Assembly (NCBI GenBank): GCA_963770575.1
Contig: CAVYQD010000001.1
Span: forward strand, 800,569-864,568
Reading direction: 5' to 3'
DNA length: 64,000 bases
DNA from: an uncultured Acidobacteriota bacterium
GTDB taxonomy: Bacteria > Acidobacteriota > Terriglobia > Acidiferrales > UBA7541
Shown here: in pieces, positions 52,732 through 64,000 of the stretch
Layout: each line of letters opens with the position of its first letter
Position numbering within the stretch: the stretch's first letter is position 1
The notes under the pieces: model-generated
Told to the model about the DNA's origin: nothing
The model's input: only the letters and a program-made list of their open reading frames with translations
Databases searched by the model: none
Position numbers and translations under genes: made by a program

Positions 52732-53238
52732 TTATTTCGCGCCGTGTGCGGCGGACGCAGCCGGCGCTGCGTCATACTTCTTCAAATCCACTTGCTTCCA
52801 TTTGCCGGCCATGATTCCGGCGCGGATTTCGGCGGGCGTCTTTCCCAATTTCGTTTGCTGATACGAGTACGCGGCTTCCTTCTGGCAAACTTCGCAAATC
52901 GATCCGTGATTGTCGCCAAAACAATCGAGCAGGCTGGTGTGGCCCACTTCGCGATCGCAGTGGCAGTAGCAGGGCTGCTGATAGAGGACAGGTTTCACCT
53001 TCGCGGCGAGCGCGTACAGATTCTGCGTGCGCGCGTCGGGGAATTGCTTCGGGTCGAGCGTCGCGGGCAGAGGCCCTGTGGGAGCGGTTGCGTGATACGC
53101 CGGAGTGTCGTCTTGCGCGCTTGGAGTGGCAGCGGATTGCGCGGCGGAGGCGCTCTGTTGCATGAATCCAAATCCCAATCCAAATCCGGCCAATGCCATC
53201 GCCAGCACAACGCCAAAAATGAGAGCTCTTTCTTTCAT
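52732..53238 (-). CDS. secreted Cys-rich protein with CYCHC motif
   Basis: ORF 52732..53307; inner ATG 53238 after GGGAG. Signal-like MKERALIFGVVLAMALAGFGLGFG. QQPCYCHCDREVGH...CFGDNHGSICEVC. Confidence 0.55.
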   Translation of the reverse strand: MKERALIFGVVLAMALAGFGLGFGFMQQSASAAQSAATPSAQDDTPAYHATAPTGPLPATLDPKQFPDARTQNLYALAAKVKPVLYQQPCYCHCDREVGHTSLLDCFGDNHGSICEVCQKEAAYSYQQTKLGKTPAEIRAGIMAGKWKQVDLKKYDAAPAASAAHGAK

Positions 53239-53419
53239 CTCGCATCTCCCTGCCAGCCGGCCAACGACTGAATACCGGCTCGTTTTCGACGCCTCAAATC
53301 GTATCACGGAACCAGCGGCGCTCAGCTTCGCCCCGCGCGTTCAGTAATGTTGACTCGCGCGTCTCGCTGGCATAACGTTTCCGCGAGCACAAGCCGCAAA
53401 CACCCTCGAGGACAACAAC

Positions 53420-54439
53420 ATGGCTGACTTCCCGATCGTCGACCTTTCTTCATTCGCAAATGCGTCGCCCGCCGAAAAGCAATCACTCGGCCGGCATGTG
53501 GACGAAATTTGCCGTCAAACGGGATTTCTCGCTATCACCGGCCACGGCGTTCCCGACGAAACAATCACGCGCGCGTGGAACGCAGCCCGCAAGTTTTTCG
53601 ATCTGCCCGAAGAAAAAAAACTCGCGGTGAAAATGCGATATGCTGGCTATCCGTACGGCTACTCGCCGCTTCAGTCCGAAGCGCTCGCGAAATCAAAAGG
53701 CGAAGAAACACCACCGGACATCAAGGAAAGTTTCAATATCGGGCCGCTCACGGTGCCGCCGCACACGGGAAACGAGCCGTTCGCCGATTTTCGCTACGCC
53801 ACGAATATCTGGCCGGCGGAACCTGCCGATTTCGAGGCTGCGTGGTCTGACTATTACCGCGCGCTTGGTGCGCTTGCCGGCCGAATCATGCGAGTGTTTG
53901 CCGTCGCGCTGAATCTGCCGGAGAATTTCTTCGACGCTGCGGTTGACGATCCTATCAGCGCGGTTCGTGCGCTGAATTATCCTCACCAGAACGTCGCGCC
54001 CAAGCCGGGCCAGCTTCGCGCCGGCGCCCATTCCGATTACGGCAGCCTCACAATCCTGCGCGCCGACGCCGCGACGGGCGGCCTTGAAATCTTCAACCCG
54101 CAAAAACAGTGGCAGGCCGTTCCGGTGATCCCAAACGGTTTTGTCGTCAACATCGGCGACTTGATGGCTCGCTGGACGAACGACCGCTGGGTTTCAACGC
54201 TCCATCGCGTCGTGAATCCCGCGCCCGATGCAAGCGGCTCCACGCGCCGCCAGTCCGTCGCCTTCTTCCATCAGCCCAACTGGGACGCCGAAATTTCCTG
54301 CATCCCCACGTGCCTAGGCGCGGGTGAGAAAGCGAAGTACCCGCCCGTCCGCTCCGGCGAATACTTGATGCAAAAATTTCACAGCACCGTGAAAATCGGC
54401 GCCGCTGCGGCAATTCCGGGAAGTTCAGCAGGCACTTAG
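53420..54439 (+). CDS. 2-oxoglutarate/Fe(II)-dependent oxygenase (isopenicillin-N-synthase family)
   Basis: 339 aa; FPIVDLS start, GFLAITGHGV, HSDYGSLTIL (HxD), STLHRV distal His, RQSVAFF. Confidence 0.8.
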   Translation: MADFPIVDLSSFANASPAEKQSLGRHVDEICRQTGFLAITGHGVPDETITRAWNAARKFFDLPEEKKLAVKMRYAGYPYGYSPLQSEALAKSKGEETPPDIKESFNIGPLTVPPHTGNEPFADFRYATNIWPAEPADFEAAWSDYYRALGALAGRIMRVFAVALNLPENFFDAAVDDPISAVRALNYPHQNVAPKPGQLRAGAHSDYGSLTILRADAATGGLEIFNPQKQWQAVPVIPNGFVVNIGDLMARWTNDRWVSTLHRVVNPAPDASGSTRRQSVAFFHQPNWDAEISCIPTCLGAGEKAKYPPVRSGEYLMQKFHSTVKIGAAAAIPGSSAGT

Positions 54440-55368
54440 GAGTTGGCGAGCGAGTTATACGCAACGGCAATTTGTGCCGCCACGCGCGCGTTGTTCAGAA
54501 GCAATGCTACGTTCGTCGTCAACGTTTTTCCGCCGCTACCCTTCGACATTGACTCGAGCAAGTACGGCGTGACGCGTTTGCCTTGAATTTTTTCGGCGGC
54601 GGCGGAAACGAGAGCCTTCTCGATCAGTGCTTCGAGATCATGCCGCGATAGCGCGCTTTTCTCCGGCGGCGGATTTCCGAACACGATTCCGGCTGAAAGT
54701 CCCAAGCCCCAGTGTGTGGCCATTAGTCGCGCTGCTTCCTTGGGAGAATCGACGCGGCATTGCAGCGCGAGGCCGCTTTCGCGGGAATAAAACGCAGGCA
54801 ATTCGTTCGTTCCGTAGCCGACGACGGGCACGCCAAGCGTTTCGAGCATTTCGAGCGTCCGCGGCAAATCGAGGATTGCTTTTGCACCTGCGCACACGAC
54901 GGCTACCGGGGTTCGGGCAAGTTCGGTGAGGTCGGCGGAAATATCGAGCGTTTCCTCCACGCCGCGATGCACGCCGCCGATTCCACCCGTTGCAAACACG
55001 CGAATGCCCGCGCGGGCTGCGATGAAAGCGGTCGCGGCAACTGTAGTAGCTCCTGGTTTGCCGGACGCGACCACGGAAGCCAAATCCGCGCGGCTAACCT
55101 TTGCGACGTTTTTCGATTCCGCAAGGAATGCCAGCTCTCCGGCGGATGTTCCGACGACGAGTTTTCCGTTGAACACGGCAATCGTCGCTGGTACCGCGCC
55201 GCCTTCGCGAATCGCAGCTTCCATGCCGCGCGCTGTCTCGAGATTGTGGGGCTGCGGCAGACCGTGCGAAATCACGGTGGATTCGAGCGCAACGACCGGC
55301 TTCTTTTCGGCAAGAGCCGCAGCGACTTCTTCATGGATGAACAGCAAGTTATCCAATCCGCCCTCCAA
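54436..55368 (-). CDS. psuG: pseudouridine-5-prime-phosphate glycosidase (IndA-like)
   Basis: 310 aa; ALESTVISHGLPQPHNLETA, GATTVAATAFIAARAGIRVFATGGIGGVHRG, DISADLTELARTPV. Confidence 0.88.
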   Translation of the reverse strand: MEGGLDNLLFIHEEVAAALAEKKPVVALESTVISHGLPQPHNLETARGMEAAIREGGAVPATIAVFNGKLVVGTSAGELAFLAESKNVAKVSRADLASVVASGKPGATTVAATAFIAARAGIRVFATGGIGGVHRGVEETLDISADLTELARTPVAVVCAGAKAILDLPRTLEMLETLGVPVVGYGTNELPAFYSRESGLALQCRVDSPKEAARLMATHWGLGLSAGIVFGNPPPEKSALSRHDLEALIEKALVSAAAEKIQGKRVTPYLLESMSKGSGGKTLTTNVALLLNNARVAAQIAVAYNSLANS

Positions 55369-55401
55369 AGCCCGGACGCTCTTGCGAATTAGTTGTGATT
55401 G

Positions 55402-56325
55402 TCATGAATGCGACGAAGCACGCGCTGCCGCTGCTTCGCGCGCCGGCATCACATTTTTCATCAGCGCGCGAACGCGATTTACGTCGACTTCATTTTGCAT
55501 CACGCCATCTTTTTTCAGGCTCGTACCGACGATGATGCCATCGGCGTGCTGGAGAAATGCCGCGACGTTCTCCGCGCTTGTGCCGCTGCCAATCAGGATG
55601 GGGCGCTTGGCGAAGGATTTTGCTTCGCGCACTTTTTCGACGTCCGGGGCGCTGCCGGTAAATCGTCCGGAAACGATCAGCGCGTCGGCGCCGTAAAATT
55701 CCGTCCATTCGATGTGCGTGCGCAGATCGATTCCCGGAAATGGCACGGAGTGTTTCTTGTCCACATCGGCAAAAATGTGGATTCCCTCGGCGTGCAGTTC
55801 TTTGCGTTTGCGCATCAATTCGGCGGCACAGCCATGATCGAATTCGCCCGTGTCCCAGACGCGCGCGCCGGTGAGAATGCAGACTCGAATCCATCGGGCG
55901 CTGGCGGCGAGAGCGATCGAAAGGCACACGGTGCCGCCGTTGTGAATCACGTTGATGCCAACGGGCACCGGAAAATTCTTCACTACTTCGGCAGCAGCGA
56001 CGGCATGGGCCGTCATCGCTTCGGGCTTCACGTCGTTGCCGACGTAGTACGGCAGGTCCCACATATTTTCGACGGCGAGGCCATCGACGCCGCCTTGCAC
56101 GAGCGCGTCCGCGTCGCGGAGCGCGTTGTCGACAATTTTCTGCATGCCGTAGCCGGTGTAGCCCGGCGCGCCCGGCAGCGGCCAGAGGTGGACCATGCCG
56201 ATGACGGGCTTAGGAACCGGGAAAAGATCGGCGAGCGATTTCAAGCGCGGGCGATCCAGTTCTTGTTTCCATTCGGGCAGCGAATTGCGATCCGGAAGCT
56301 GAGTTCTGTCAGGCGACGGCGTCAT
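55402..56325 (-). CDS. BtpA/SgcQ-family TIM-barrel protein
   Basis: ORF 55402..56529. Sensible start is ATG 56325 (MTPSPDR), overlapping the kinase stop as ATGA. VIGMVHLWPLPGAPGY, VDGLAVENMWDLPY, GINVIHNG, ALIVSGRFTGSAP, ILIGSGTS. Confidence 0.7.
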   Translation of the reverse strand: MTPSPDRTQLPDRNSLPEWKQELDRPRLKSLADLFPVPKPVIGMVHLWPLPGAPGYTGYGMQKIVDNALRDADALVQGGVDGLAVENMWDLPYYVGNDVKPEAMTAHAVAAAEVVKNFPVPVGINVIHNGGTVCLSIALAASARWIRVCILTGARVWDTGEFDHGCAAELMRKRKELHAEGIHIFADVDKKHSVPFPGIDLRTHIEWTEFYGADALIVSGRFTGSAPDVEKVREAKSFAKRPILIGSGTSAENVAAFLQHADGIIVGTSLKKDGVMQNEVDVNRVRALMKNVMPAREAAAARASSHS

Positions 56326-57356
56326 GTGGACCTCTTTTCGAGCGATTTGCGATTTTGAAGGAGCGCGAGAACTTGCCGCCGTACGGCGTCCCACTCGCCG
56401 CGCATTTTTTGCGAGCGAAGCAGCGCTTTCACTTCTCGCGCACCGGGAAGTGTTTCTCCGGCGCCGACAAACGAGACGGCTGCAGCACCGCCGGCAGAAG
56501 CGGCAACGGCGGCCTCCGCGAGCGGCCATCCGCGCAAGCGCGCTTGCAAGAATCCGGCGACGAAGGCATCGCCTGCTCCGGTGGAATCGACCATTTTCAC
56601 GTCGAACGACGGCACAAGCCGCGCCGCGCCATTTTGCGATATCAAGCAGCCGCGCTTTCCGAGTTTCAGAACCAACTCGCGCGCGCCGGCCTTTTTCAGC
56701 GCGGCAAACGCGCGATGCGGGTCGCGCGCGCCCGTGAGCAGCGTGGCTTCGTCCAAACTCAGCAGGAGAATATCGACGCTGGGAATGATTTGCAAAATTT
56801 TTCGCGGGATTTGCTGGCTGGGGGCCATACCCACGTCAAGCGAGACCCAGCCGCCGCGCGCGTGAATCGTTCGCATGACTTGCCGTGCGGCAACAGCGGG
56901 GCCCGGATTGAGAAAATTGTAGCCGACCAAATGCGCGGCCGCTGCTCCTTTGCAGAGAGCTTGCACATCGCGCAATTTCTTCACGTGGCCATTCGCGGCG
57001 CGGCTTCCGAAAAATGTGCGTTCGCCGTCGGGCGTGACGTTGATATAGAAAAATCCCGTCATCGCGTCGGAGGTTCGTTGAACCCAGCGCGTGTTGACGC
57101 CGCCATTTTTCAGGCCTTCGAGCACGTAGTCGCCGAAGCGATCGCTGCCGACACATCCTGCAAGTCGAACGTCGAGTCCCCAGCGCGCGAGAGCGAGCGC
57201 AGAATTTGCTCCCACGCCGCCGCAATGCATTTCGAGGTGCGGCGCAAGGCAATCCTGGCCGGGCTTCGGCCAGGCGGCAACGCGGCCGAGCATGTCGACG
57301 TTGATGTCGCCGAGAACGACGATGGAGGGATGGGGAGGAGCGGAGGCGCGCGTCAC
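56322..57356 (-). CDS. PfkB-family carbohydrate/nucleoside kinase (pseudouridine-kinase candidate)
   Basis: 344 aa; IVVLGDINVDM, GGVGANSALALARWG, C-terminal DSTGAGDAFVAGF PfkB signature. First gene of a three-gene operon ending in psuG. Confidence 0.75.
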   Translation of the reverse strand: MTRASAPPHPSIVVLGDINVDMLGRVAAWPKPGQDCLAPHLEMHCGGVGANSALALARWGLDVRLAGCVGSDRFGDYVLEGLKNGGVNTRWVQRTSDAMTGFFYINVTPDGERTFFGSRAANGHVKKLRDVQALCKGAAAAHLVGYNFLNPGPAVAARQVMRTIHARGGWVSLDVGMAPSQQIPRKILQIIPSVDILLLSLDEATLLTGARDPHRAFAALKKAGARELVLKLGKRGCLISQNGAARLVPSFDVKMVDSTGAGDAFVAGFLQARLRGWPLAEAAVAASAGGAAAVSFVGAGETLPGAREVKALLRSQKMRGEWDAVRRQVLALLQNRKSLEKRST

Positions 57357-57772: not shown

Positions 57773-58600
57773 TTATTTCGCGCGCGCGAGCGCGTTGATT
57801 TGGTTTTGAGCGAGTGCAATCCGCCATGGATAGACGTCGCTATGCCATTTGGTCGCCTGCAAGTACGATTGCAGTTCGCTCTTGGCGAGCGCGTTCTGCC
57901 CCGTAGCTTCATACACTTCGGCAAGCTCCCAATGGACTTTTGAGTTGTTCGCGAGGTCGCCGGTGAGAGCGATGCTTTGCGATGTGACGGGCGTGAGCGC
58001 GAGCTCGGCTTGAAACGCGGTGATCGCATTTGCGTACGCCTGCTGCTTCGCCGTTGGATCGCTGGCTTGCTGCGCTTCGATCACGTAGGTTTCGGCGATC
58101 AAGGTATTGACGCCAAGTTTTTGCGGATCGATTTGCAGCACTTCCTGGAACAGCTCGATCGCGTTGCTGGGATTTGTTTCACGCAACAGGTTGCCGAGCC
58201 GCAGCCGTACGGTGAACATGCATGGCGCAGGAGTCATCTGCTGCGGAACCGTGCCGTTCACTAAACTCGCTGCTGTGACGATCTGGCACGTGTGGCTTTG
58301 CAAGCTGTTCATCGCAAGTGAGGTCTGGTAGTCGTTGATGGCGTCCGGAATATCGTCCATGTCGTCCTGGAAATGGATGCCGCGTTCCATGTAGTCCCAG
58401 GTGGTTTGCGGCTGCGGGATATTGATCAAATTCCAGTCGATCTTTCCTTCGAAGTAGAAAGGATTTGGTTTTGGATAGTAAGGATTCGCGCTTTGAAATT
58501 CTCCGGGCGTGTACGTAGGGGAGCTTTGCGCGAAGACGGCGACAAGCACGAGCGCAACGGCTATCACGATCAAGGCCGGATATCGGTATCGAATTTTCAT
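57773..58600 (-). CDS. membrane-anchored/secreted TPR-like protein co-transcribed with the 5-haem cytochrome
   Basis: 275 aa; N-terminal hydrophobic ALIVIAVALVLVAVFA; helical-repeat C-terminal half (AIELFQEVLQIDPQ.., YANAITAFQAELAL.., ELAEVYEATGQNALAKSELQSYL). 4-nt overlap with the upstream gene. Confidence 0.55.
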   Translation of the reverse strand: MKIRYRYPALIVIAVALVLVAVFAQSSPTYTPGEFQSANPYYPKPNPFYFEGKIDWNLINIPQPQTTWDYMERGIHFQDDMDDIPDAINDYQTSLAMNSLQSHTCQIVTAASLVNGTVPQQMTPAPCMFTVRLRLGNLLRETNPSNAIELFQEVLQIDPQKLGVNTLIAETYVIEAQQASDPTAKQQAYANAITAFQAELALTPVTSQSIALTGDLANNSKVHWELAEVYEATGQNALAKSELQSYLQATKWHSDVYPWRIALAQNQINALARAK

Positions 58601-60772
58601 GGCGTCGTCAGACTCACAGTAATGTCGTCGGAAGTGATGTTCTGAACATTTTTCAACAATGTGTCGATGCGATGTTCGTTCACGAGATTTAGATCGTGAC
58701 CCGCTGGCCCGTTCGGGCCGGTGACTCCCGCTAGGAACCTCAAAAAGAGCGGCGGGAAATGCTCGAAGTTGATTTGTGCATGGACGTGCAGCGGGCCCTG
58801 AATCGTTACGCCCATGGCCTGAAGCTGCTGCTGGGTGGGAAGTTGAATTTCGTAGTTGTACACCCGCGGATGCAGCGGCTGGAGCGAACGGAAATTATCA
58901 ACGGAGTTCGCGAGCGCCGCTTGAAACGTTTCTTCGAAGTGAGCGCCCTTGGCAGTTATTGGCTGTCCAGTATTTGGATCGATGCGTCCGATTGCCTGCC
59001 CCGGAAGGAAAATGTGCGTCAACTCATTGCGGAAGAGGACGAGGCCTTCCTGCGCGCCGACAAATACGCGCGCATCGGGACCATCGTCCGGGCCTGACTC
59101 GAACAGCAAATTGTTGCCGCCGTTCGTCCCGGTACCTGCCGTGAACGTGGCTGTATGAGTGCCCGGATCGACGATGGCGTGGAGATGTTCGAGGTCTTCG
59201 TCGTCGAGATTGCCGTCGGGCGCCGCCTCGCCCGTATTCGGATGCGGTTTGTCGACCAGATAGCCGGACTGGTACAGAAGGAATCCGTTGTTGTCCGTGA
59301 CGGCCATTTGGACGTAGACGGTTCGCTCTTGCGAAAATCCCGCAGGGAGCCGGTGGCCGGTGAGTGAAACTGCTTCGAGCCTCACTGTGAATTTCTGGCC
59401 CAGTTGCGCGGATGTATCTGTCTTGCTCAGCGTGAGCCGCGCGGCCGCCTTCATCAGATCTTCGCGACGAGTAGAGAGGCCGTTGGGCACGCCGTGCGTG
59501 TCCATTCCGGTTGCGTTGGGATCGGGATAGGGACCCAACCGTGAGCTCAATTCATTTACGGTGAGGAGGGGAACGTCGACGCCCGTGAAGTAGTGTTCGA
59601 CGACTTTGCGTTGCGGAAGCGCAGCGTTCTGGTCCGTCGAAACTCCCGGAACCGCGGCGTAAGTCGGTGGCAAACATACCCGGCGTGGGAGTGGTCACGG
59701 TCATATCGCCGACCTGATAGGTGGTGCTGCCGGCGTATGGGAACAGCGACATGTGGCAATCCTGGCAACGAACGATCTGGCCGAATGGATTGCTCGTGCT
59801 GTTATAGGGACCGACCTGCCACTCGGTGCTCAAATTTTCGAGGCGGAAGTAGCTGACGTTTTGACCGCCAGGATTCATGTTGTGCTCTTCAGCGGTCAAG
59901 TTCCGGTTAGGAACGCGCACGTCATGGCAAGTGTTGCAGAAAGCTCCTGCGCGCAGGAATGCGATCTTGCCGGAGTCGTTGCTCACGACGTGGAAATTAT
60001 TTTTGACGGCTACGGGAAACAGGAACGGCCCGGTTTTCAGGGTCGTCTGGTTCAGCAACAGGCTGGTGTTCGCGAAGCCGTCCATCTGCAAGCTGCGATG
60101 GAGGTCCGGCCCGTTTTCGTCGTGGCAGAAGTCGCAAGAAATTCCGGAAGCGGCGAGAGAAGGCATAGAGCCCGCCGGCGGATCGCCACCCGGTACCGGC
60201 GGCAAAGTCTGATTTCCATTCGCGTCGACGAGCACATAGTCCCGCAGCGGCCGGAACAATTGCGGCTGAAAACATTGCTGGCCCGGGGGCGGCGCAGGAT
60301 TACAGGTGCCCAGGCCGGGAATCTGCGGAACTTCCCGCAGGGCTGGATTTTCGCCCAATACTTCGGCATTCGCATTGTGACAAGTAAAACAAAAACCCGC
60401 CTGCACCTGGCGCGTTTCGGTGAGGACCGGCGAGCTATACATGTTCGTATTCAGAAGCGTGCCATCTGGAAGGACGATAGTGCTGTCCTTGTATACGGGG
60501 CGCAGCAAGCCGCCATTCACGAGATTGCCGGCCGATTCGAGGCCATTGAACAACGGGCTGACGTTGCGGTAGCCCGATTTCACGGCACTGTGAAGCTCGT
60601 CATACTGGCGCTGGTGGCACGGCAAACAATTTTCCGACGGTTGAAACGACTGCGGCTGAAAAGAAACGACCGGAGGATTGGGAACACTTTCAACCTGCGT
60701 GCCGCTGCACCCGAGCTGCAGGATGCAAAGGAATGCAGTACCAGCAGTCGCAATGAGAGCCCGGAGACGCAA
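58597..60772 (-). pseudogene. lipoprotein-like multihaem c-type cytochrome (5 CXXCH) with a Cys-free C-terminal domain; apparent frameshift
   Basis: ORF 59552..60772: MRLRALIATAGTAFLCILQLGC (signal plus possible lipobox). Motifs CLPCH, CFTCH, CDFCH, CNTCH, CQDCH. ORF 58597..59673 continues in another frame (..TPTPGM | LPPTYAAVPGVSTDQ..). The junction is at the AAA run 59672-59674 (+ strand). Confidence 0.75.
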
Positions 60773-61154
60773 AATCGTTTACCTGCCGGAAAAGATGCTG
60801 GAGAGCGTATCGCAGTCGCTCGGATTATTGCAATTGAAATGAGTCCGCGAGGGCTTATATCCGGCGCAGAATTTCATTCATGTACCTCTGTGAAACTCAG
60901 CGAAGCGAAAACAGACGCTGCATCACAGACAATCTAGTAAGGTCGGATGCGGGTGATTACGGAATGATCGCAGCGGTCAAGATTCGAAGAGCTTTTCAGT
61001 TGTGAAGTATATGTTCCTATGTAAAATGAGGCCCCAACGGGGGTTGTGCCCGATGGATACCGCTCAGAGCTGACCCTCCGGTTTTTGTTTTTGCGACAGC
61101 GCTTCGTGTAGTGCGCCATTCAATAGATTCGAATCTGTCAGCAGGTAGATCTGG

Positions 61155-62852
61155 ATGTTGCCGTGGATTTGGAGCAGCGTTTTTGCCGGTCGAATCGCGA
61201 CCGCAGGAAAAAGCGTGCCAAGGCAGTCTCGATATCTACTTTCGTTGAGCGTTTTCGCGCTGGCGCTTTCGTTCGCAAGAAGCGCGGGCGCACAGCAAAG
61301 TTCGTCTCCGCCACTTCCCGATAAAGCCGAGAAGTCGAATCAGAATATTGCGGACGACTGGGGAAGCCTGCTGCACGACACGATTCCACAGACGCAAGTC
61401 GATCCCAACCTCGCGGTTCCTCAAAATGCATTCGAGCACACCGCCGGGCAGGATTTTCTGGACCACTTCTTCTACGAAAGCCGCCTGGATTATATTCGAA
61501 CGCAAACGTATTTTACGGGGAACCCAACTGCGACGGGCGTAATCGACGGTCCGCCCAGCCCGGTGCAGAACCCTAACGGGATTGTCGATCCGGCAGTTTT
61601 TCAGCCCAGTACGAACATGATGTACGCGTTTATGAATTGGGGCACGCGCGGCTGGCTATCGGACCGTCTGAACACAAATTTTTCGTTTCGCTACGAGCAG
61701 AATCTCACGCATGTGGACGACGGATCGCCTGGGCAAAGCATTCTCACCACGTTTCCTTCGAGCCGGAGATTGGAATTGCTTTCAGGCTATGCGGAGATTC
61801 AGGGGCGCGCTTCGGACGGGGTGTTTGCCGGAACTTCGCTTCGTCTGGGGCGGCAGAATATTTATGGCGCGGAAGTGGCGTCGCTGGACGGCGCGTCGTT
61901 TACGATGGCCCGAAAGAGATATTCGTACACGATATTCGGCGGGCGGCGTTTCACGTACTACTCCGATCCGGCGCAGCGAGCGATCGGCGGCGGGAGCCTC
62001 GACCTGCACTTCGGAGATAGCGGAATTTTTCAGTACGAAGCGCTTTTCTACATCAAAGGCAGCCAGGTGTTTTCGTACCGGCAGCGATTCGGCCGCTCGT
62101 GGATGTTCAGCACGTACTACAAAATGATTGGCGGCGCGGCGATCGACTACGGCGCGAATGCGATCTGGACTCCCGGCGGCAGCGGGAAAACGATGGTGCG
62201 CCTCGGCTACCTCCAGAAGCTCACCGACCAGGATTATTTTTACGATTACACGGAAGGCGCGCGGGACCACGATATTCACAATCCGGTGTTGCGTCTGAAT
62301 CTGGGTACGTTTTCGCCGTACAGCCAATTTCTGGTGGATGCGCGACGGACCGTAAATTCCCGAGTTTTGTTGAGCGGCGGAGTGATTGTCCTTCACCTGA
62401 ACGATTCGAGCCAGCAGGGGCCGTTCGATACTTCGTACCAGGATTATCGCGCCGACGCGCAGGTGTATCCCGGCAGGCAGTACGTGTTGTTTTTCGAGTA
62501 CCACGAAAGAGACTCGGATCGATTGAGTTCCGCCAACGTGACGCAATTGAGCGATATCAGCACGACGGGCGAAACGAAAATCCGCGATTTCAGCGTAGAG
62601 CTCGGCCACACATATATGGATGGAAGGCTCACGCTAAAAGCCGGCGGCTTCTTCCGGCTGCTCAACTTTCAAGACGCGTTCACGATCATCAATGGCGCGC
62701 ACGATTTCGGAATGCTTGCGACCGCGCAATTCAAACTGGACCGTCGAACGCGTTTCTATCTCGATTACGGGCTCGATAGCGATTATTTTGTGTTCCGGCC
62801 GGATATTCAGAACGCCCAGACGTTCCGTGTGGGCATGGCGTGGACATACTGA
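61155..62852 (+). CDS. predicted outer-membrane beta-barrel protein (porin-like), family unassigned
   Basis: 565-aa ORF. An alternative GTG at 61215 after AGGAAA gives a cleaner signal peptide (PRQSRYLLSLSVFALALSFARSAGA|QQ). Many alternating amphipathic strands (NTNFSFRYEQ, ASFTMARKRYSYTIFGG, WMFSTYYKMIGG, YVLFFEYHE). C-terminal ..FRVGMAWTY. Confidence 0.65.
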   Translation: MLPWIWSSVFAGRIATAGKSVPRQSRYLLSLSVFALALSFARSAGAQQSSSPPLPDKAEKSNQNIADDWGSLLHDTIPQTQVDPNLAVPQNAFEHTAGQDFLDHFFYESRLDYIRTQTYFTGNPTATGVIDGPPSPVQNPNGIVDPAVFQPSTNMMYAFMNWGTRGWLSDRLNTNFSFRYEQNLTHVDDGSPGQSILTTFPSSRRLELLSGYAEIQGRASDGVFAGTSLRLGRQNIYGAEVASLDGASFTMARKRYSYTIFGGRRFTYYSDPAQRAIGGGSLDLHFGDSGIFQYEALFYIKGSQVFSYRQRFGRSWMFSTYYKMIGGAAIDYGANAIWTPGGSGKTMVRLGYLQKLTDQDYFYDYTEGARDHDIHNPVLRLNLGTFSPYSQFLVDARRTVNSRVLLSGGVIVLHLNDSSQQGPFDTSYQDYRADAQVYPGRQYVLFFEYHERDSDRLSSANVTQLSDISTTGETKIRDFSVELGHTYMDGRLTLKAGGFFRLLNFQDAFTIINGAHDFGMLATAQFKLDRRTRFYLDYGLDSDYFVFRPDIQNAQTFRVGMAWTY

Positions 62853-62856
62853 CGAA

Positions 62857-64000
62857 ATGAGCGGACGCCTCCAACGAATTGCCGTCGCGCTGCTTGCGCT
62901 CGTGGTGTGGCTGGGGTGCGTTCGAATTTCCGGCGCGCAACAGAGTGCGCCCGCACCGGCTGCAGCAGCGCCCGGACCTGCCGCCGCGCCTGCTGCGAAA
63001 CCTGCTGCGCCAGGCGCTGGCGCGCCCGCAACGCCTTCGAACGAACCTTTTTTTCTGCACGCGTACCACATGAAGACCGTCGGCCTTGAGTGCGACACGT
63101 GCCATGTCCCGCAGAAAGAGGGTTCGGTGGTGTTGCAGCGGCCCGGCCACGACCAATGCACTCCATGCCACGAAGAAGCGTTCAACGAAAAGCTAAATCC
63201 CAAAATTTGCGCGCAGTGCCATTCGGATTTTCCGCCCACGAGCTCGGACGGCTTGTTTCCGTATCCGCGTTTCAAGGGCCAGCGCTCACTGCTGATCGAT
63301 TTCGCGCATTCTCGCCACGTGGATCCGCAAGGGCGCAACGATTCCAGAACCGGTTTTCGCGCGGATTGCGCTTTCTGCCACAGCTTCGACGCGCAGGGGC
63401 TCTATGCGAAATTCCCGACTCACGCGCAATGCACTTCGTGTCATGCGAAGCCCGGCTTCAAGCCGGTATTGAGCGCGAAATCGACGACTGCGGATTGCCG
63501 CGGCTGCCACGCGCCGGAAGAAATTGAGAATCCGGATTCGGCTACGCATCACGCGGAGCTTTCTGCGCAGGTGCTTACCGGAACTTATGCGGGAATTCGT
63601 TTCTCGCATGTGGCGCACAACAAAGTTCGCGATGAATACCACGTGAATTGCACCACCTGCCACTCGGATGTGTTGAAGAGCACCGGCCTTGCCGATCTCA
63701 CGCTTCCGAAAATGATCGATTGCGTCGGCTGCCACGACACGTCGAAAAGCATTCCGGCACAATATTCAATGTCCAACTGCAACGTCTGTCACGTGGATGT
63801 GAAGAACGGCCCGATGCCTCCGAGCCACAGCCGCTACGTGAAGCCCGCTTTCCACGATGAAAGTTTCCGCCAACATCACTCGGAACAGGCGTCTGAAGCC
63901 AACGCGAAATGCTTTGTGTGCCATACGAACGTTTCTCCGTCGGCGACCGTGAAGCAGCAATGTGTTTCGTGCCACGAGGTTTCGCGCCCGATTTCCCACA
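62857..64000 (+). CDS. multihaem c-type cytochrome (at least 11 haems), concatenated c7/c3-like modules; 3-prime partial
   Basis: Not in the ORF track (no stop before 64000). Hand translation from ATG 62857: MSGRLQRIAVALLALVVWLGCVRISGAQQ, an Ala/Pro linker, then CDTCH, CTPCH, CAQCH, CAFCH, CTSCH, CRGCH, CTTCH, CVGCH, CNVCH, CFVCH, CVSCH within 381 aa. Starts 4 nt after the beta-barrel gene stop. Confidence 0.85.
   Translation, partial: MSGRLQRIAVALLALVVWLGCVRISGAQQSAPAPAAAAPGPAAAPAAKPAAPGAGAPATPSNEPFFLHAYHMKTVGLECDTCHVPQKEGSVVLQRPGHDQCTPCHEEAFNEKLNPKICAQCHSDFPPTSSDGLFPYPRFKGQRSLLIDFAHSRHVDPQGRNDSRTGFRADCAFCHSFDAQGLYAKFPTHAQCTSCHAKPGFKPVLSAKSTTADCRGCHAPEEIENPDSATHHAELSAQVLTGTYAGIRFSHVAHNKVRDEYHVNCTTCHSDVLKSTGLADLTLPKMIDCVGCHDTSKSIPAQYSMSNCNVCHVDVKNGPMPPSHSRYVKPAFHDESFRQHHSEQASEANAKCFVCHTNVSPSATVKQQCVSCHEVSRPISH

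What the first reader, a model, noticed from the sequence alone, without database searches (positions are those of the whole stretch)
57773..64000. Divergent multihaem-cytochrome / beta-barrel locus: candidate outer-membrane electron conduit
Seen: the minus operon encodes a lipoprotein-like protein with 5 CXXCH motifs (60772->58597). It overlaps by 4 nt a TPR-like membrane-anchored protein (58600->57773). Across a visibly AT-richer ~380-bp divergent spacer, the plus operon encodes a 545-565-aa signal-peptide protein. That protein is built of alternating amphipathic strands and ends in ..FRVGMAWTY, an aromatic terminus typical of BAM-inserted OMPs. Four nt later comes an ORF with 11 CXXCH in 381 aa that is still open at the window edge. 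Established: Geobacter Pcc (porin-like OmbB plus multihaem OmaB/OmcB) and Shewanella MtrCAB / Rhodopseudomonas PioAB carry electrons across the outer membrane with these same components. Inference: this is a porin-cytochrome-type conduit, for metal/humic/electrode respiration or electron uptake, in an acidobacterial background. The barrel has no MtrB/PioB-style N-terminal CXXC. The barrel-first gene order also differs from both paradigms, so it may be a separate lineage.
Basis: partly seen in the sequence, partly recalled or inferred. Interest (0 to 1): 0.78.

Follow-up and report, generated by a model that had tools for sequence, protein, structure and literature searches.

The report
Acidobacterial porin–multihaem cytochrome gene module
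This is one rearranged copy of a four-gene set (five-haem protein, TPR protein, 22-strand outer-membrane barrel, 15-haem protein) that soil Acidobacteria keep together. It most likely carries electrons across the outer membrane, but nobody has tested it.

Summary
The genes are real, with two corrections. The "5-CXXCH lipoprotein" is split into two frames by one extra T at 59661/59662, probably an assembly indel. The last ORF is about 81 aa and 4 CXXCH short of a 15-haem protein.

The barrel (no Pfam, NCBIfam or PDB sequence match; AF2 model with 22 strands) defines an uncharacterised OMP family. In 72 acidobacterial loci that hold all four genes they are always together, and 66 have the order cyt5–TPR–barrel–cyt15 on one strand. 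All five distant family members whose contigs were long enough also sit beside multihaem cytochromes. About half of the loci add a membrane-anchored NapC/NirT tetrahaem, a monohaem c, a cNMP-binding membrane protein and an NDH-2-like flavoprotein.

The window copy is atypical. cyt5–TPR is inverted. The locus is also a mosaic: cyt5 and TPR are ~80–85% identical to one clade, but barrel and cyt15 only ~54% to any clade.

The porin–cytochrome reading is supported by composition and synteny, not by membership in Mtr. The "barrel-first is new" argument is wrong, because Geobacter ombB–omaB–omcB is also barrel-first.

The pentahaem protein is c552-like, the most conserved component, and not always lipidated. 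It may therefore be an enzyme rather than a surface metal reductase. The closest described system is the uncharacterised marine ptdABCDEFG cluster.

The parts
57773..58600 (-). TPR-repeat protein, 275 aa. It has one N-terminal hydrophobic segment (signal peptide or anchor, ...AVFA|QSS) and is predicted to be periplasmic. Proposed role: assembly or scaffold partner of the pentahaem protein.
   Evidence: ORF. Pfam TPR_19/TPR_2 hits. Orthologues lie next to cyt5 in 66 of 72 complete loci. It co-varies most with cyt5 (partial r 0.60).
58597..60772 (-). Pentahaem c-type cytochrome with a large beta-rich C-terminal half ('cyt5'; 724 aa once repaired). Here it is interrupted by a +1 frameshift. CXXCH motifs are at residues 49, 128, 213, 279 and 336. 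The N-terminus is ...LQLGC|SG.
   Evidence: frames, extra T; 502 homologues, the best 85% identical, nearly all about 720 aa; 117 of 119 have 5 CXXCH; the only significant fold match is 5ZE8, pentahaem c552 (TM 0.60 on the target); no PDB sequence match.
59661..59662 (-). TT where relatives have a single T. This 1-nt insertion shifts the frame of the pentahaem gene. It is a probable long-read assembly indel; a recent pseudogenising mutation is the alternative.
   Evidence: Comparable split genes occur in about 10 related loci, mostly long-read 'MFD' MAG assemblies.
60773..61214 (.). AT-richer divergent intergenic spacer between the starts of cyt5 and the barrel. It presumably holds promoters for both units. 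No similarity to the intergenic regions of relatives.
   Evidence: GC 0.49-0.52. No blastn hit in 79 loci. One sigma-70-like site at 61000-61027(+), no more than chance.
61215..62852 (+). Outer-membrane beta-barrel, 545 aa (an alternative ATG at 61155 gives 565 aa). It has a signal peptide, a conserved N-terminal extension of about 85 aa, 22 predicted strands, the C-terminal beta-signal ...FRVGMAWTY and no Cys. It is a member of an unannotated OMP family.
   Evidence: P0001, 100% identical, 545 aa; invariant W543, near-invariant Y545. AF2 pLDDT 70.8, 22 strands; no Pfam, NCBIfam or PDB sequence match; only generic barrel fold matches; 220 representatives at E<=1e-3 among 1.84 billion.
62857..64000 (+). 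The first 381 aa of a c7/c3-type multihaem cytochrome ('cyt15'), with 11 of an expected 15 CXXCH. It has a signal peptide, an Ala/Pro-rich linker and then triplets of haem motifs. It is cut off by the window edge, with about 81 aa missing.
   Evidence: Cytochrome_C7 E=1.9e-16 in 3 stretches; 67 of 73 orthologues have 15 CXXCH, median length 452 aa; spacing 22,17,53,21,22,51,24,19,44,17 is identical to L086.

Best explanation
The window carries a rearranged, mosaic copy of a conserved acidobacterial porin-cytochrome module.

Proposed mechanism (inferred, not shown):
1. The 15-haem c7-type cytochrome is exported by Sec to the periplasm.
2. It inserts into, or docks under, the 22-strand barrel and so forms a haem wire across the outer membrane.
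3. The c552-like pentahaem protein, with its beta-sandwich C-terminal half, is the terminal redox partner at the barrel. It is lipid-anchored in most lineages.
4. The TPR protein acts in the periplasm as chaperone or scaffold for the pentahaem protein and its docking to the barrel.
5. In many relatives a membrane-anchored NapC/NirT-type tetrahaem cytochrome, a monohaem c and an NDH-2-like flavoprotein encoded next to the module would connect it to the quinone pool. In this genome those genes, if present, lie beyond position 64000.

The direction of electron flow and the substrate are unknown. In this particular copy the pentahaem gene reads as frameshifted, most likely through a sequencing indel.
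For: Shown here:
- All four genes exist and are exported-type proteins.
- The four genes co-occur in every one of 72 sufficiently long loci from Terriglobia (Acidiferrales, Terriglobales, Bryobacterales, Versatilivorator). 66 have one fixed order and 6 have shuffled orders, and the flanks are not conserved. Linkage that survives rearrangement argues for joint function.
- Distant barrel homologues (21-32% identity) are each adjacent to multihaem cytochromes in L080, L083, L084, L085 and L087. L085 has all four genes in the same divergent layout as the window.
- The barrel model has 22 strands, which corresponds to a C-alpha diameter of about 40 A.
- cyt15 has 15 CXXCH in about 450 aa with c7-type triplets.
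- The barrel-cyt15 and cyt5-TPR pairs co-vary beyond the shared phylogeny (partial r 0.55 and 0.60). They also behave as separate inheritance units in the window's mosaic. This echoes the porin/periplasmic-cytochrome co-evolution reported for Pcc (PMC4245776).
- NapC/NirT tetrahaem (4 CXXCH, signal peptide plus transmembrane helices), monohaem c, cNMP-binding protein and NDH-2 genes adjoin the module in about 40 of 79 loci.

From the literature:
- The operational definition of an electron conduit is a periplasmic multihaem cytochrome, an outer-membrane barrel and an outer-membrane redox lipoprotein (PMC6148476).
- Pcc porins have 18-22 predicted strands and their periplasmic cytochromes 5-14 haems (PMC4245776).
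Against: - No experiment exists, and no complex model could be run.
- The pentahaem protein is the most conserved component (mean p-distance 0.34, against 0.48 for the barrel). Surface cytochromes of known conduits are the most variable component (PMC6148476, PMC4245776).
- 28% of its orthologues lack the lipobox Cys, and position -3 is E or Q.
- It has low haem density, many invariant non-haem residues and a c552-like fold. These features look more like an enzyme than a wire.
- The barrel model is only moderately confident (pLDDT 70.8). Its conserved N-terminal 85 residues and long loops are unmodelled and could plug the lumen.
- There is no sequence link to MtrB/PioB, and none could be tested for OmbB or the Ext porins.
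- The accessory inner-membrane genes are not visible in this window.
Confidence: 0.55

Rival explanations
1. Periplasmic multihaem enzyme system with a dedicated substrate or product channel. The c552-like pentahaem protein would be a catalytic reductase or oxidase for a specific small molecule, for example a sulfur, nitrogen, selenium or quinone-like species. The barrel would be the channel for that molecule. The 15-haem protein would be a periplasmic wire or capacitor fed from NapC/NirT. This resembles what is now emerging for Geobacter ExtHIJKL, where ExtKL is the periplasmic polysulfide reductase MccSep.
For: - The only significant fold hit for cyt5 is 5ZE8, pentahaem c552.
- c552 is the stated structural neighbour of MccSep, which has a pentahaem cap and an Ig-like beta-sandwich stem (bioRxiv 10.1101/2025.11.18.688581).
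- cyt5 is the most conserved gene and has many invariant His, Asp, Arg and Tyr residues outside the haem motifs.
- The lipobox is absent in 28% of orthologues.
- PtdA, a c552 homologue next to a porin, falls in the NrfA COG (bioRxiv 10.1101/2023.11.21.568154).
Against: - No cysteine outside the five CXXCH is conserved, so the MccSep chemistry (haem-ligating Cys plus Sec/Cys) is excluded.
- There is no Pfam hit to NrfA, HAO or MccA-type families.
- A 22-strand barrel is far larger than a small solute needs.
- A 15-haem wire immediately downstream of the barrel, and co-varying with it, fits a conduit better.
Confidence: 0.25
2. The TPR protein and the barrel form a translocon or assembly machine that exports the pentahaem (lipo)protein to the cell surface. 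This would be analogous to Slam, or to TPR-plus-barrel secretins such as AlgK/AlgE, PgaA and BcsC. The 15-haem protein would be only a neighbouring periplasmic carrier.
For: - A TPR protein plus a barrel is the recurring logic of those exporters (established knowledge).
- The best fold hits for the barrel are AlgE entries.
- cyt5-TPR and cyt5-barrel co-vary (partial r 0.60 and 0.41).
- TPR genes recur near distant barrel homologues in L084, L085 and L087.
Against: - The AlgE match is generic: TM 0.36, 7-9% identity, 18 strands against 22.
- There are no Pfam hits to Alginate_exp, DUF560/Slam or any other exporter family.
- No polysaccharide genes lie nearby.
- The barrel's tightest partner in both gene order and covariation is cyt15.
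- This reading does not exclude the conduit: MtrB is itself needed for MtrC display (established knowledge).
Confidence: 0.1
3. In this genome the module is decaying and non-functional. The pentahaem gene would be a true pseudogene, and the inversion and mosaic structure would be scars of a rearrangement that broke the operon.
For: - Frameshift at 59661/59662.
- A gene orientation unique among 79 species representatives.
- Discordant identities between the two gene pairs.
Against: - Both halves of cyt5 remain fully open and 79-85% identical to orthologues, with no further lesions.
- The same kind of split occurs in about 10 other loci, mostly long-read assemblies, which points to indel errors.
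- The distant L085 has intact genes in the same divergent layout.
- The barrel, TPR and cyt15 ORFs are intact.
Confidence: 0.1

Closest known systems
ptdABCDEFG putative porin-cytochrome cluster of marine Alphaproteobacteria, Gammaproteobacteria, Nitrospirales and Planctomycetes (Elbon et al., bioRxiv 10.1101/2023.11.21.568154); function unknown
   Same: [quoted passage not shown]
- In both it sits beside a porin (PtdB; the barrel here).
- Both have a long periplasmic multihaem protein (PtdG).
- In relatives of the window there is also a tetrahaem (PtdD-like NapC/NirT), an FAD/NAD(P) oxidoreductase (PtdC-like NDH-2) and cNMP-binding proteins (PtdE-like). L080 even has the cNMP plus 2x[4Fe-4S] protein.
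   Different: - 15 haems here, not 10.
- A conserved TPR gene that is not described for ptd.
- No ferric-reductase-like PtdF was found.
- The monohaem c is extra.
- The hosts are soil and peat Acidobacteriota rather than saline-water taxa.
- Sequence homology to the Ptd proteins could not be tested because no Ptd sequences were on hand.
Geobacter sulfurreducens Pcc and Ext conduits (OmbB-OmaB-OmcB; ExtABCD; ExtEFG), PMC6148476 and PMC4245776
   Same: - The same three-part logic: a barrel of 18-22 predicted strands, a periplasmic multihaem cytochrome (5-15 haems) and a small redox lipoprotein.
- ExtEFG in particular has a 21-strand ExtE, the pentahaem lipoprotein ExtF and the dodecahaem periplasmic ExtG.
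- The barrel gene lies directly upstream of the periplasmic cytochrome gene, as in ombB-omaB.
- Barrel and periplasmic cytochrome co-evolve.
   Different: - No sequence relationship has been demonstrated.
- The pentahaem protein is 724 aa with a large non-haem half, and it is the most conserved component rather than the most variable.
- A TPR partner is present.
- Lipidation is not universal.
Shewanella MtrCAB / Rhodopseudomonas PioAB
   Same: The concept is the same: a cytochrome sheathed by a barrel, and a NapC/NirT-family (CymA-like) quinol dehydrogenase upstream in the chain.
   Different: - No match to the MtrB_PioB or DmsE/MtrA/MtrC family models.
- 22 strands rather than 26.
- No N-terminal CXXC; the barrel has no Cys at all.
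- 15 and 5 haems rather than 10 and 10.
Acidobacterial EET1 (porin-NHL-13-haem) and EET2 (MtrC-DmsE-porin-4-haem) clusters of Fiorito et al. 2026 (bioRxiv 10.64898/2026.05.27.727921)
   Same: The same phylum and orders (Terriglobales, Bryobacterales). These are also conserved porin-multihaem clusters interpreted as extracellular electron transfer machinery, and they are transcribed in peat.
   Different: The gene content differs. There is no NHL propeller and no MtrC/DmsE-family decahaems. Instead there is a TPR protein, a c552-like pentahaem and a 15-haem c7-type protein. This appears to be a third acidobacterial architecture not described in that study.
MccSep (ExtKL) pentahaem selenocysteine polysulfide reductase and T. 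tepidum pentahaem c552 (PDB 5ZE8)
   Same: An N-terminal helical pentahaem domain followed by a beta-sandwich domain. 5ZE8 is the only significant fold match of cyt5.
   Different: - No sequence-level match.
- No conserved Cys or Sec outside the haem motifs.
- cyt5 is about 270-340 aa longer.

Membership tests
MtrB/PioB decahaem-associated outer-membrane barrel | Sequence match to Pfam MtrB_PioB (PF11854) or NCBIfam TIGR03509 | tested here: not met
   No hit at E<=0.1 for the window barrel or for 10 distant family members. The barrel profile has no PDB hit at E<=10, although MtrB (6R2Q) is in the PDB.
MtrB/PioB decahaem-associated outer-membrane barrel | 26-strand barrel (28 by older predictions) with an N-terminal CXXC | tested here: not met
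   The AF2 model has 22 strands. The barrel contains no cysteine.
Outer-membrane electron conduit, operational definition of Jimenez Otero et al. 2018 (PMC6148476) | (i) A periplasmic multihaem c-type cytochrome encoded in the cluster | tested here: met
   cyt15 has 11 CXXCH visible and 15 in orthologues, with a Sec-type signal peptide. Localisation is predicted only.
Outer-membrane electron conduit, operational definition of Jimenez Otero et al. 2018 (PMC6148476) | (ii) An integral outer-membrane beta-barrel encoded in the cluster | tested here: met
   Signal peptide, 22 predicted strands and an aromatic C-terminal beta-signal. Fold hits are to outer-membrane barrels only.
Outer-membrane electron conduit, operational definition of Jimenez Otero et al. 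2018 (PMC6148476) | (iii) An outer-membrane lipoprotein with redox cofactors | tested here: inconclusive
   cyt5 has 5 CXXCH and ...LQLGC|SG, but position -3 is Q or E. Only 83 of 116 orthologues keep the Cys, and only 30 fit a PROSITE-like lipobox rule. No LipoP or SignalP tool was available, and there are no localisation data.
Geobacter Pcc (OmbB/OmaB/OmcB) and Ext porin families | Sequence homology to OmbB, ExtB/ExtE or ExtI porins, or to OmaB/ExtA/ExtG cytochromes | not testable with these tools
   No reference sequences or HMMs for these proteins were available. An attempt to reach named relatives with a profile of distant barrels returned only 3 hits.
Geobacter Pcc (OmbB/OmaB/OmcB) and Ext porin families | A porin of 18-22 predicted strands immediately adjacent to a periplasmic cytochrome of 5-15 haems (PMC4245776, PMC6148476) | tested here: met
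   22 strands. The cyt15 start lies 4 nt after the barrel stop. The adjacency is kept in all loci whose contigs extend past the barrel.
Ptd (penta/tetra/deca-haem) cluster | [quoted passage not shown] | tested here: met
   5 CXXCH and a beta-rich C-terminal half in the AF2 model. 5ZE8 is the only significant fold hit. The gene is adjacent to the barrel. The similarity is structural only, with no sequence hit.
Ptd (penta/tetra/deca-haem) cluster | PtdC-G accessory set: FAD oxidoreductase, tetrahaem, cNMP plus 2x[4Fe-4S] protein, ferric-reductase-like membrane protein, decahaem | tested here: inconclusive
   Relatives have an NDH-2-like flavoprotein, a NapC/NirT tetrahaem and a cNMP-binding membrane protein. 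L080 has the cNMP plus Fer4 protein. No ferric-reductase-like gene was seen. There are 15 haems, not 10. None of these genes is inside the window.
MccSep (ExtKL) polysulfide reductase family | Five CXXCH plus a conserved Sec/Cys and a haem-ligating Cys (bioRxiv 10.1101/2025.11.18.688581) | tested here: not met
   In a 50-sequence alignment the only invariant cysteines are the ten of the CXXCH motifs.
AlgE/AlgK-type or Slam-type exporter | Sequence or close fold match to Alginate_exp or DUF560 barrels; exporter gene context | tested here: not met
   No Pfam hit. The AlgE fold match has TM 0.36 and 7-9% identity. The neighbours are cytochromes, not polysaccharide genes.
c7-type multihaem polymers (Cytochrome_C7, PF14522) | Repeated c7-type haem-binding units | tested here: met
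   PF14522 E=1.9e-16 with 3 stretches. CXXCH triplets are spaced 22/17, 21/22 and 24/19 with gaps of about 52 residues. There are weak PDB hits to cytochrome c7.

The most novel reading that the evidence does not exclude
Soil and peat Acidobacteriota, among the most abundant soil bacteria, carry a widespread and previously undescribed trans-outer-membrane redox machine. In it, a highly conserved c552-like pentahaem protein would be a substrate-specific enzyme. It would be wired through a 15-haem cytochrome housed in a new 22-strand barrel family, and assembled with a dedicated TPR partner. This would be a respiratory or detoxifying pathway distinct from Mtr, Pcc and Ext. It would be evolutionarily linked to the marine Ptd system and would act on an unknown non-metal substrate such as organic-matter quinones or sulfur or nitrogen species.
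Probability: 0.25. Interest if true: 0.8.

Novelty: new variant of a known kind. Interest (0 to 1): 0.6.

Why it matters
Terriglobia dominate acidic soils and peat. Whether they respire extracellular acceptors (Fe(III), humics, particulate organic matter) is an open question, and it bears on soil iron and phosphorus cycling and on peat methane budgets (PMC7980381; bioRxiv 10.64898/2026.05.27.727921).

This module appears to be a third conserved acidobacterial porin-cytochrome architecture, distinct from the two described in 2026. It is found across Acidiferrales, Terriglobales, Bryobacterales and sponge-associated Versatilivorator. Its barrel family has no annotation in Pfam or NCBIfam, so current annotation pipelines miss it.

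It also gives a terrestrial counterpart to the unexplained marine Ptd cluster. It offers a defined four-gene target (plus NapC/NirT) for heterologous expression.

Tried and rejected
- **Extending the contig.** Exact look-ups of the 565-aa and 545-aa barrel failed. The genome-contig scan did not return the source genome; the best hit was 56% identical. What lies past 64000 is therefore inferred from relatives only.
- **PDB sequence searches.** The barrel profile, the cyt5 profile and full-length cyt5 gave nothing. cyt15 gave only weak c7 hits.
- **Fold search of the barrel.** It gave only generic barrels, so AlgE was rejected as a meaningful relative.
- **Scars of the inversion.** No flanking inverted repeats. 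No similarity of the spacers to relatives. No left-flank synteny. The promoter/terminator scan did not exceed chance.
- **Programmed frameshift.** Rejected, because all relatives read straight through with one T fewer.
- **MccSep-type chemistry.** Rejected, because there is no conserved extra Cys.
- **Identity with EET1 or EET2 of Fiorito et al.** Rejected on gene content.

Full report
**1. What is in the sequence**

ORF listing and translation confirm four exported proteins at 57773-64000.
- A 275-aa TPR protein lies at 57773..58600 on the minus strand, with Pfam TPR_19/TPR_2 hits.
- Its start overlaps by 4 nt the stop of an upstream cytochrome gene.
- That cytochrome gene is not one ORF. The span 60772->58597 is 2176 nt long and reads as two overlapping frames. 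The first, 59552..60772, encodes 406 aa and holds all five CXXCH. The second, 58597..59673, encodes 358 aa and has no Pfam hit.
- Six close relatives read GCCACCGACTACGCC at the junction, where the window has GCCACCGACTTACGCC.
- Removing one T at 59661/59662 restores a 724-aa protein with CXXCH at residues 49, 128, 213, 279 and 336.
- About ten related loci, mostly from long-read 'MFD' MAG assemblies, show comparable splits in one or another of these genes. An assembly indel is therefore the most likely cause, but a real pseudogene cannot be excluded.

Across a 442-bp spacer with lower GC (0.49-0.52) lies the barrel ORF.
- A database copy identical to the window starts at 61215 and is 545 aa long (P0001).
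- It has a signal peptide, no cysteine and the C-terminus FRVGMAWTY.
- In a 29-sequence alignment the Trp is invariant and the final Tyr is nearly invariant.

Four nucleotides after its stop, an ORF starts at 62857 and runs off the window.
- It has 11 CXXCH in 381 aa and strong Cytochrome_C7 hits.
- Orthologues have exactly 15 CXXCH in 67 of 73 cases, with a median length of 452 aa.
- The window's haem spacing is identical to the nearest full-length relative over the first 11 haems. The alignment stops at residue 365 of 446, so about 81 aa and four haem sites lie beyond position 64000.

**2. The barrel**

- No Pfam or NCBIfam model matches it, including MtrB_PioB/TIGR03509.
- Ten distant relatives also have no match apart from sub-threshold generic OMP_b-brl hits.
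- A profile of the family finds nothing in the PDB sequences at E<=10.
- AlphaFold2 on the 29-sequence alignment gives a moderately confident model (pLDDT 70.8, pTM 0.61) with 22 strands. The conserved N-terminal ~85 residues and several long loops are poorly modelled.
- Foldseek finds only generic outer-membrane barrels. The top hits are AlgE at TM 0.36 and 7-9% identity. Ushers, porins and TonB-dependent receptors score similarly.
- For 22 strands the standard barrel geometry gives a C-alpha diameter of about 40 A. That lies between an 18-strand barrel (33 A) and 26-strand MtrB (47 A). It is the size that houses the plug domain in TonB-dependent receptors (established knowledge).
- An exhaustive HMMER search of 1.84 billion representative proteins finds only 220 family members at E<=1e-3. 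This is a small, unannotated family.

**3. Conservation of the neighbourhood**

A scan of one genome per GTDB species returned 79 loci. All are Acidobacteriota (Acidiferrales/Acidoferrum, Terriglobales, Bryobacterales, Versatilivorator), apart from one sponge MAG labelled Chloroflexi.
- tblastn with the four window proteins shows that every locus with enough contig carries all four genes.
- Of the 72 complete loci, 66 have the order cyt5-TPR-barrel-cyt15 on one strand. Four have TPR-barrel-cyt15-cyt5, and two have other orders.
- Flanking genes are not conserved.
- The window's layout, with TPR and cyt5 on the minus strand facing barrel and cyt15 on the plus strand, is unique in this set.

Five distant barrel homologues (21-32% identity) had usable contigs, and all five lie beside multihaem cytochromes.
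- L080: a 1546-aa 9-haem LVIVD protein, the barrel, then a 452-aa 15-haem protein.
- L083: the barrel, then 12-haem and 10-haem proteins.
- L084: a TPR protein, a 9-haem protein, then the barrel.
- L087: the barrel followed by three cytochromes, with a TPR gene nearby.
- L085: all four genes in the same divergent layout as the window. Its 811-aa protein has 5 CXXCH and is 40-44% identical to cyt5.

**4. An extended cluster in relatives**

The nearest barrel relative (L086, 63% identical) continues after cyt15 with four more genes:
- a 253-aa NapC/NirT-family tetrahaem;
- a 189-aa membrane protein with a cNMP-binding domain;
- a 125-aa monohaem cytochrome c;
- a 546-aa NDH-2-type flavoprotein with a cNMP-binding domain.

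Homologues of these genes directly follow or precede the module in about 40 of 79 loci. The tetrahaem proteins have a signal peptide followed by transmembrane helices and 4 CXXCH in 37 of 40 cases. This is what is expected of an inner-membrane quinol-linked cytochrome (established knowledge of the NapC/NirT/CymA family). None of these genes is inside the window. If present, they lie past 64000.

**5. The window copy is a mosaic**

- cyt5 and TPR are 79-85% and 74-81% identical to one clade (L001, L002, L004, L007, L022, L037, L068). This is within that clade's own range.
- The barrel and cyt15 are only 51-56% and 53-55% identical to that clade, and are about as distant from the other Terriglobia clades compared. 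Barrels within the clade are 63-87% identical to each other.
- The barrel's nearest relative (L086) has a cyt5 only 73% identical to the window's.
- So barrel+cyt15 and cyt5+TPR have different histories here, and the inversion coincides with the junction between them.
- Across 56 loci, partial correlations of pairwise distances are highest for cyt5-TPR (0.60) and barrel-cyt15 (0.55). cyt5-barrel is intermediate (0.41) and cyt5-cyt15 is nil.
- This is only suggestive, because linked genes are also recombination units. It does match the porin/periplasmic-cytochrome co-evolution described for Pcc (PMC4245776).
- I found no inverted repeats or sequence scars of the inversion.

**6. The pentahaem protein**

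- 117 of 119 full-length homologues have five CXXCH.
- A lipobox-like L-[E/Q]-x-G-C-G-T is present in 83 of 116. The others have a plain AxA|QTP signal. Lipidation is therefore plausible for the window's lineage but is not a family constant.
- The AF2 model (pLDDT 66.5, pTM 0.70) has a helical N-terminal half and a beta-rich C-terminal half.
- Its only significant PDB fold match is 5ZE8, the pentahaem cytochrome c552 of Thermochromatium tepidum (E 2.6e-6, TM 0.60 on the target). There is no sequence-level match.
- Two preprints make this informative.
  - c552 is the structural neighbour of MccSep (Geobacter ExtKL). MccSep is a periplasmic pentahaem selenoenzyme with an Ig-like beta-sandwich stem that reduces polysulfide (10.1101/2025.11.18.688581).
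  - c552 is also the cited homologue of PtdA. [quoted passage not shown]
- cyt5 has no conserved cysteine outside its haem motifs, so MccSep chemistry is excluded.
- cyt5 is the most conserved of the four proteins: mean p-distance 0.34, against 0.40 for TPR, 0.44 for cyt15 and 0.48 for the barrel. For Geobacter conduits the extracellular component is reported to be the most variable one (PMC6148476, PMC4245776).

**7. Interpretation**

The composition meets the operational definition of an outer-membrane electron conduit (PMC6148476). A periplasmic multihaem cytochrome and a barrel are present; the third element, a redox lipoprotein, is uncertain.

It is most like ExtEFG in outline: a 21-strand barrel, a pentahaem lipoprotein and a dodecahaem periplasmic cytochrome. 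It is most like Ptd in the nature of the pentahaem protein and in the accessory genes.

I therefore favour a porin-cytochrome conduit (0.55). In this reading cyt15 occupies the barrel, cyt5 is the terminal partner and the TPR protein assists assembly. Every mechanistic step is inference.

The main rival (0.25) keeps the same parts but makes cyt5 a substrate-specific enzyme and the barrel its channel. cyt5's conservation, low haem density and c552-like fold favour that rival. The size of the barrel and its tight coupling to a 15-haem wire count against it. A TPR-barrel export role and decay of this copy are minor alternatives.

**8.

- The conduit idea is reasonable.
- The 'separate lineage' conclusion is right with respect to MtrB/PioB, where the membership tests were not met.
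- The gene-order argument is wrong, because ombB-omaB-omcB is also barrel-first (PMC4245776).
- Homology to Geobacter Pcc/Ext porins and to PtdB could not be tested.
- The 2026 survey of acidobacterial EET clusters describes porin-NHL-13-haem and MtrC-DmsE-porin-4-haem architectures, not this one.
- Ca. Acidoferrum was proposed as an iron cycler on the basis of Mtr-type TIGRFAM hits (PMC7980381).
- I found no description of this TPR/c552-like/15-haem module in the searchable literature. That library is incomplete.

**9. Verdict**

This is a real, conserved and unannotated acidobacterial porin-multihaem-cytochrome module. The copy seen here is atypically rearranged, mosaic and apparently frameshifted. 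It is a new variant of a known kind. It is worth structural and biochemical follow-up, chiefly because of its hosts' abundance in soil and because its pentahaem component may be an enzyme rather than a wire.

Noticed in passing
window 59661-59662: One extra T relative to all relatives examined splits the pentahaem gene into two frames. Similar splits occur in about 10 related loci, mostly long-read MAG assemblies, which suggests indel errors in such assemblies.
   Followed up: yes
window 57773-64000 compared with L001-L079: The locus is a mosaic. cyt5 and TPR are ~80-85% identical to one Acidiferrales clade, while the adjacent barrel and cyt15 are ~54% identical to every clade compared. The junction coincides with an inversion of cyt5-TPR that is unique among 79 species representatives.
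   Followed up: yes
window 62857-62925: The N-terminus of the 15-haem protein (…ALLALVVWLGC) formally fits a lipobox rule, unlike its orthologues. In this genome the long cytochrome might itself be lipidated.
   Followed up: partly
L086:6686-10367; about 40 of L001-L079: A conserved accessory set lies beside the module in many Terriglobia: a NapC/NirT tetrahaem with transmembrane helices, a cNMP-binding membrane protein, a monohaem c, and an NDH-2-like flavoprotein with a cNMP-binding domain. Two cNMP-binding domains hint at cyclic-nucleotide control of this pathway.
   Followed up: partly
L080:1348-13845 (JGI 3300006865): A distant version of the module: a 1546-aa 9-haem protein with LVIVD repeats, the barrel and a 15-haem protein, followed by a cNMP plus 2x[4Fe-4S] protein and an FHA/Fer4/flavoprotein. 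This resembles the PtdE and PtdC components of the marine ptd cluster.
   Followed up: partly
L063 (VXPS01000256.1, labelled Chloroflexi, sponge MAG): It carries the acidobacterial-type four-gene module in the canonical order. This is probably a mis-binned acidobacterial contig, since other sponge hits are Versatilivorator/Acidobacteria.
   Followed up: no
window 52732-53307 (-): A small exported protein with a Cys-rich C-terminal motif (…CYCHCDREVGH…C…C..C…), next to unrelated metabolic genes. Its function was not examined.
   Followed up: no
window 54436-57356 (-): The left flank encodes a PfkB-family kinase, a BtpA-like protein and a pseudouridine-5'-phosphate-glycosidase-like protein. It has no synteny with the flanks of related loci, so the module's position in the genome is not conserved.
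   Followed up: partly
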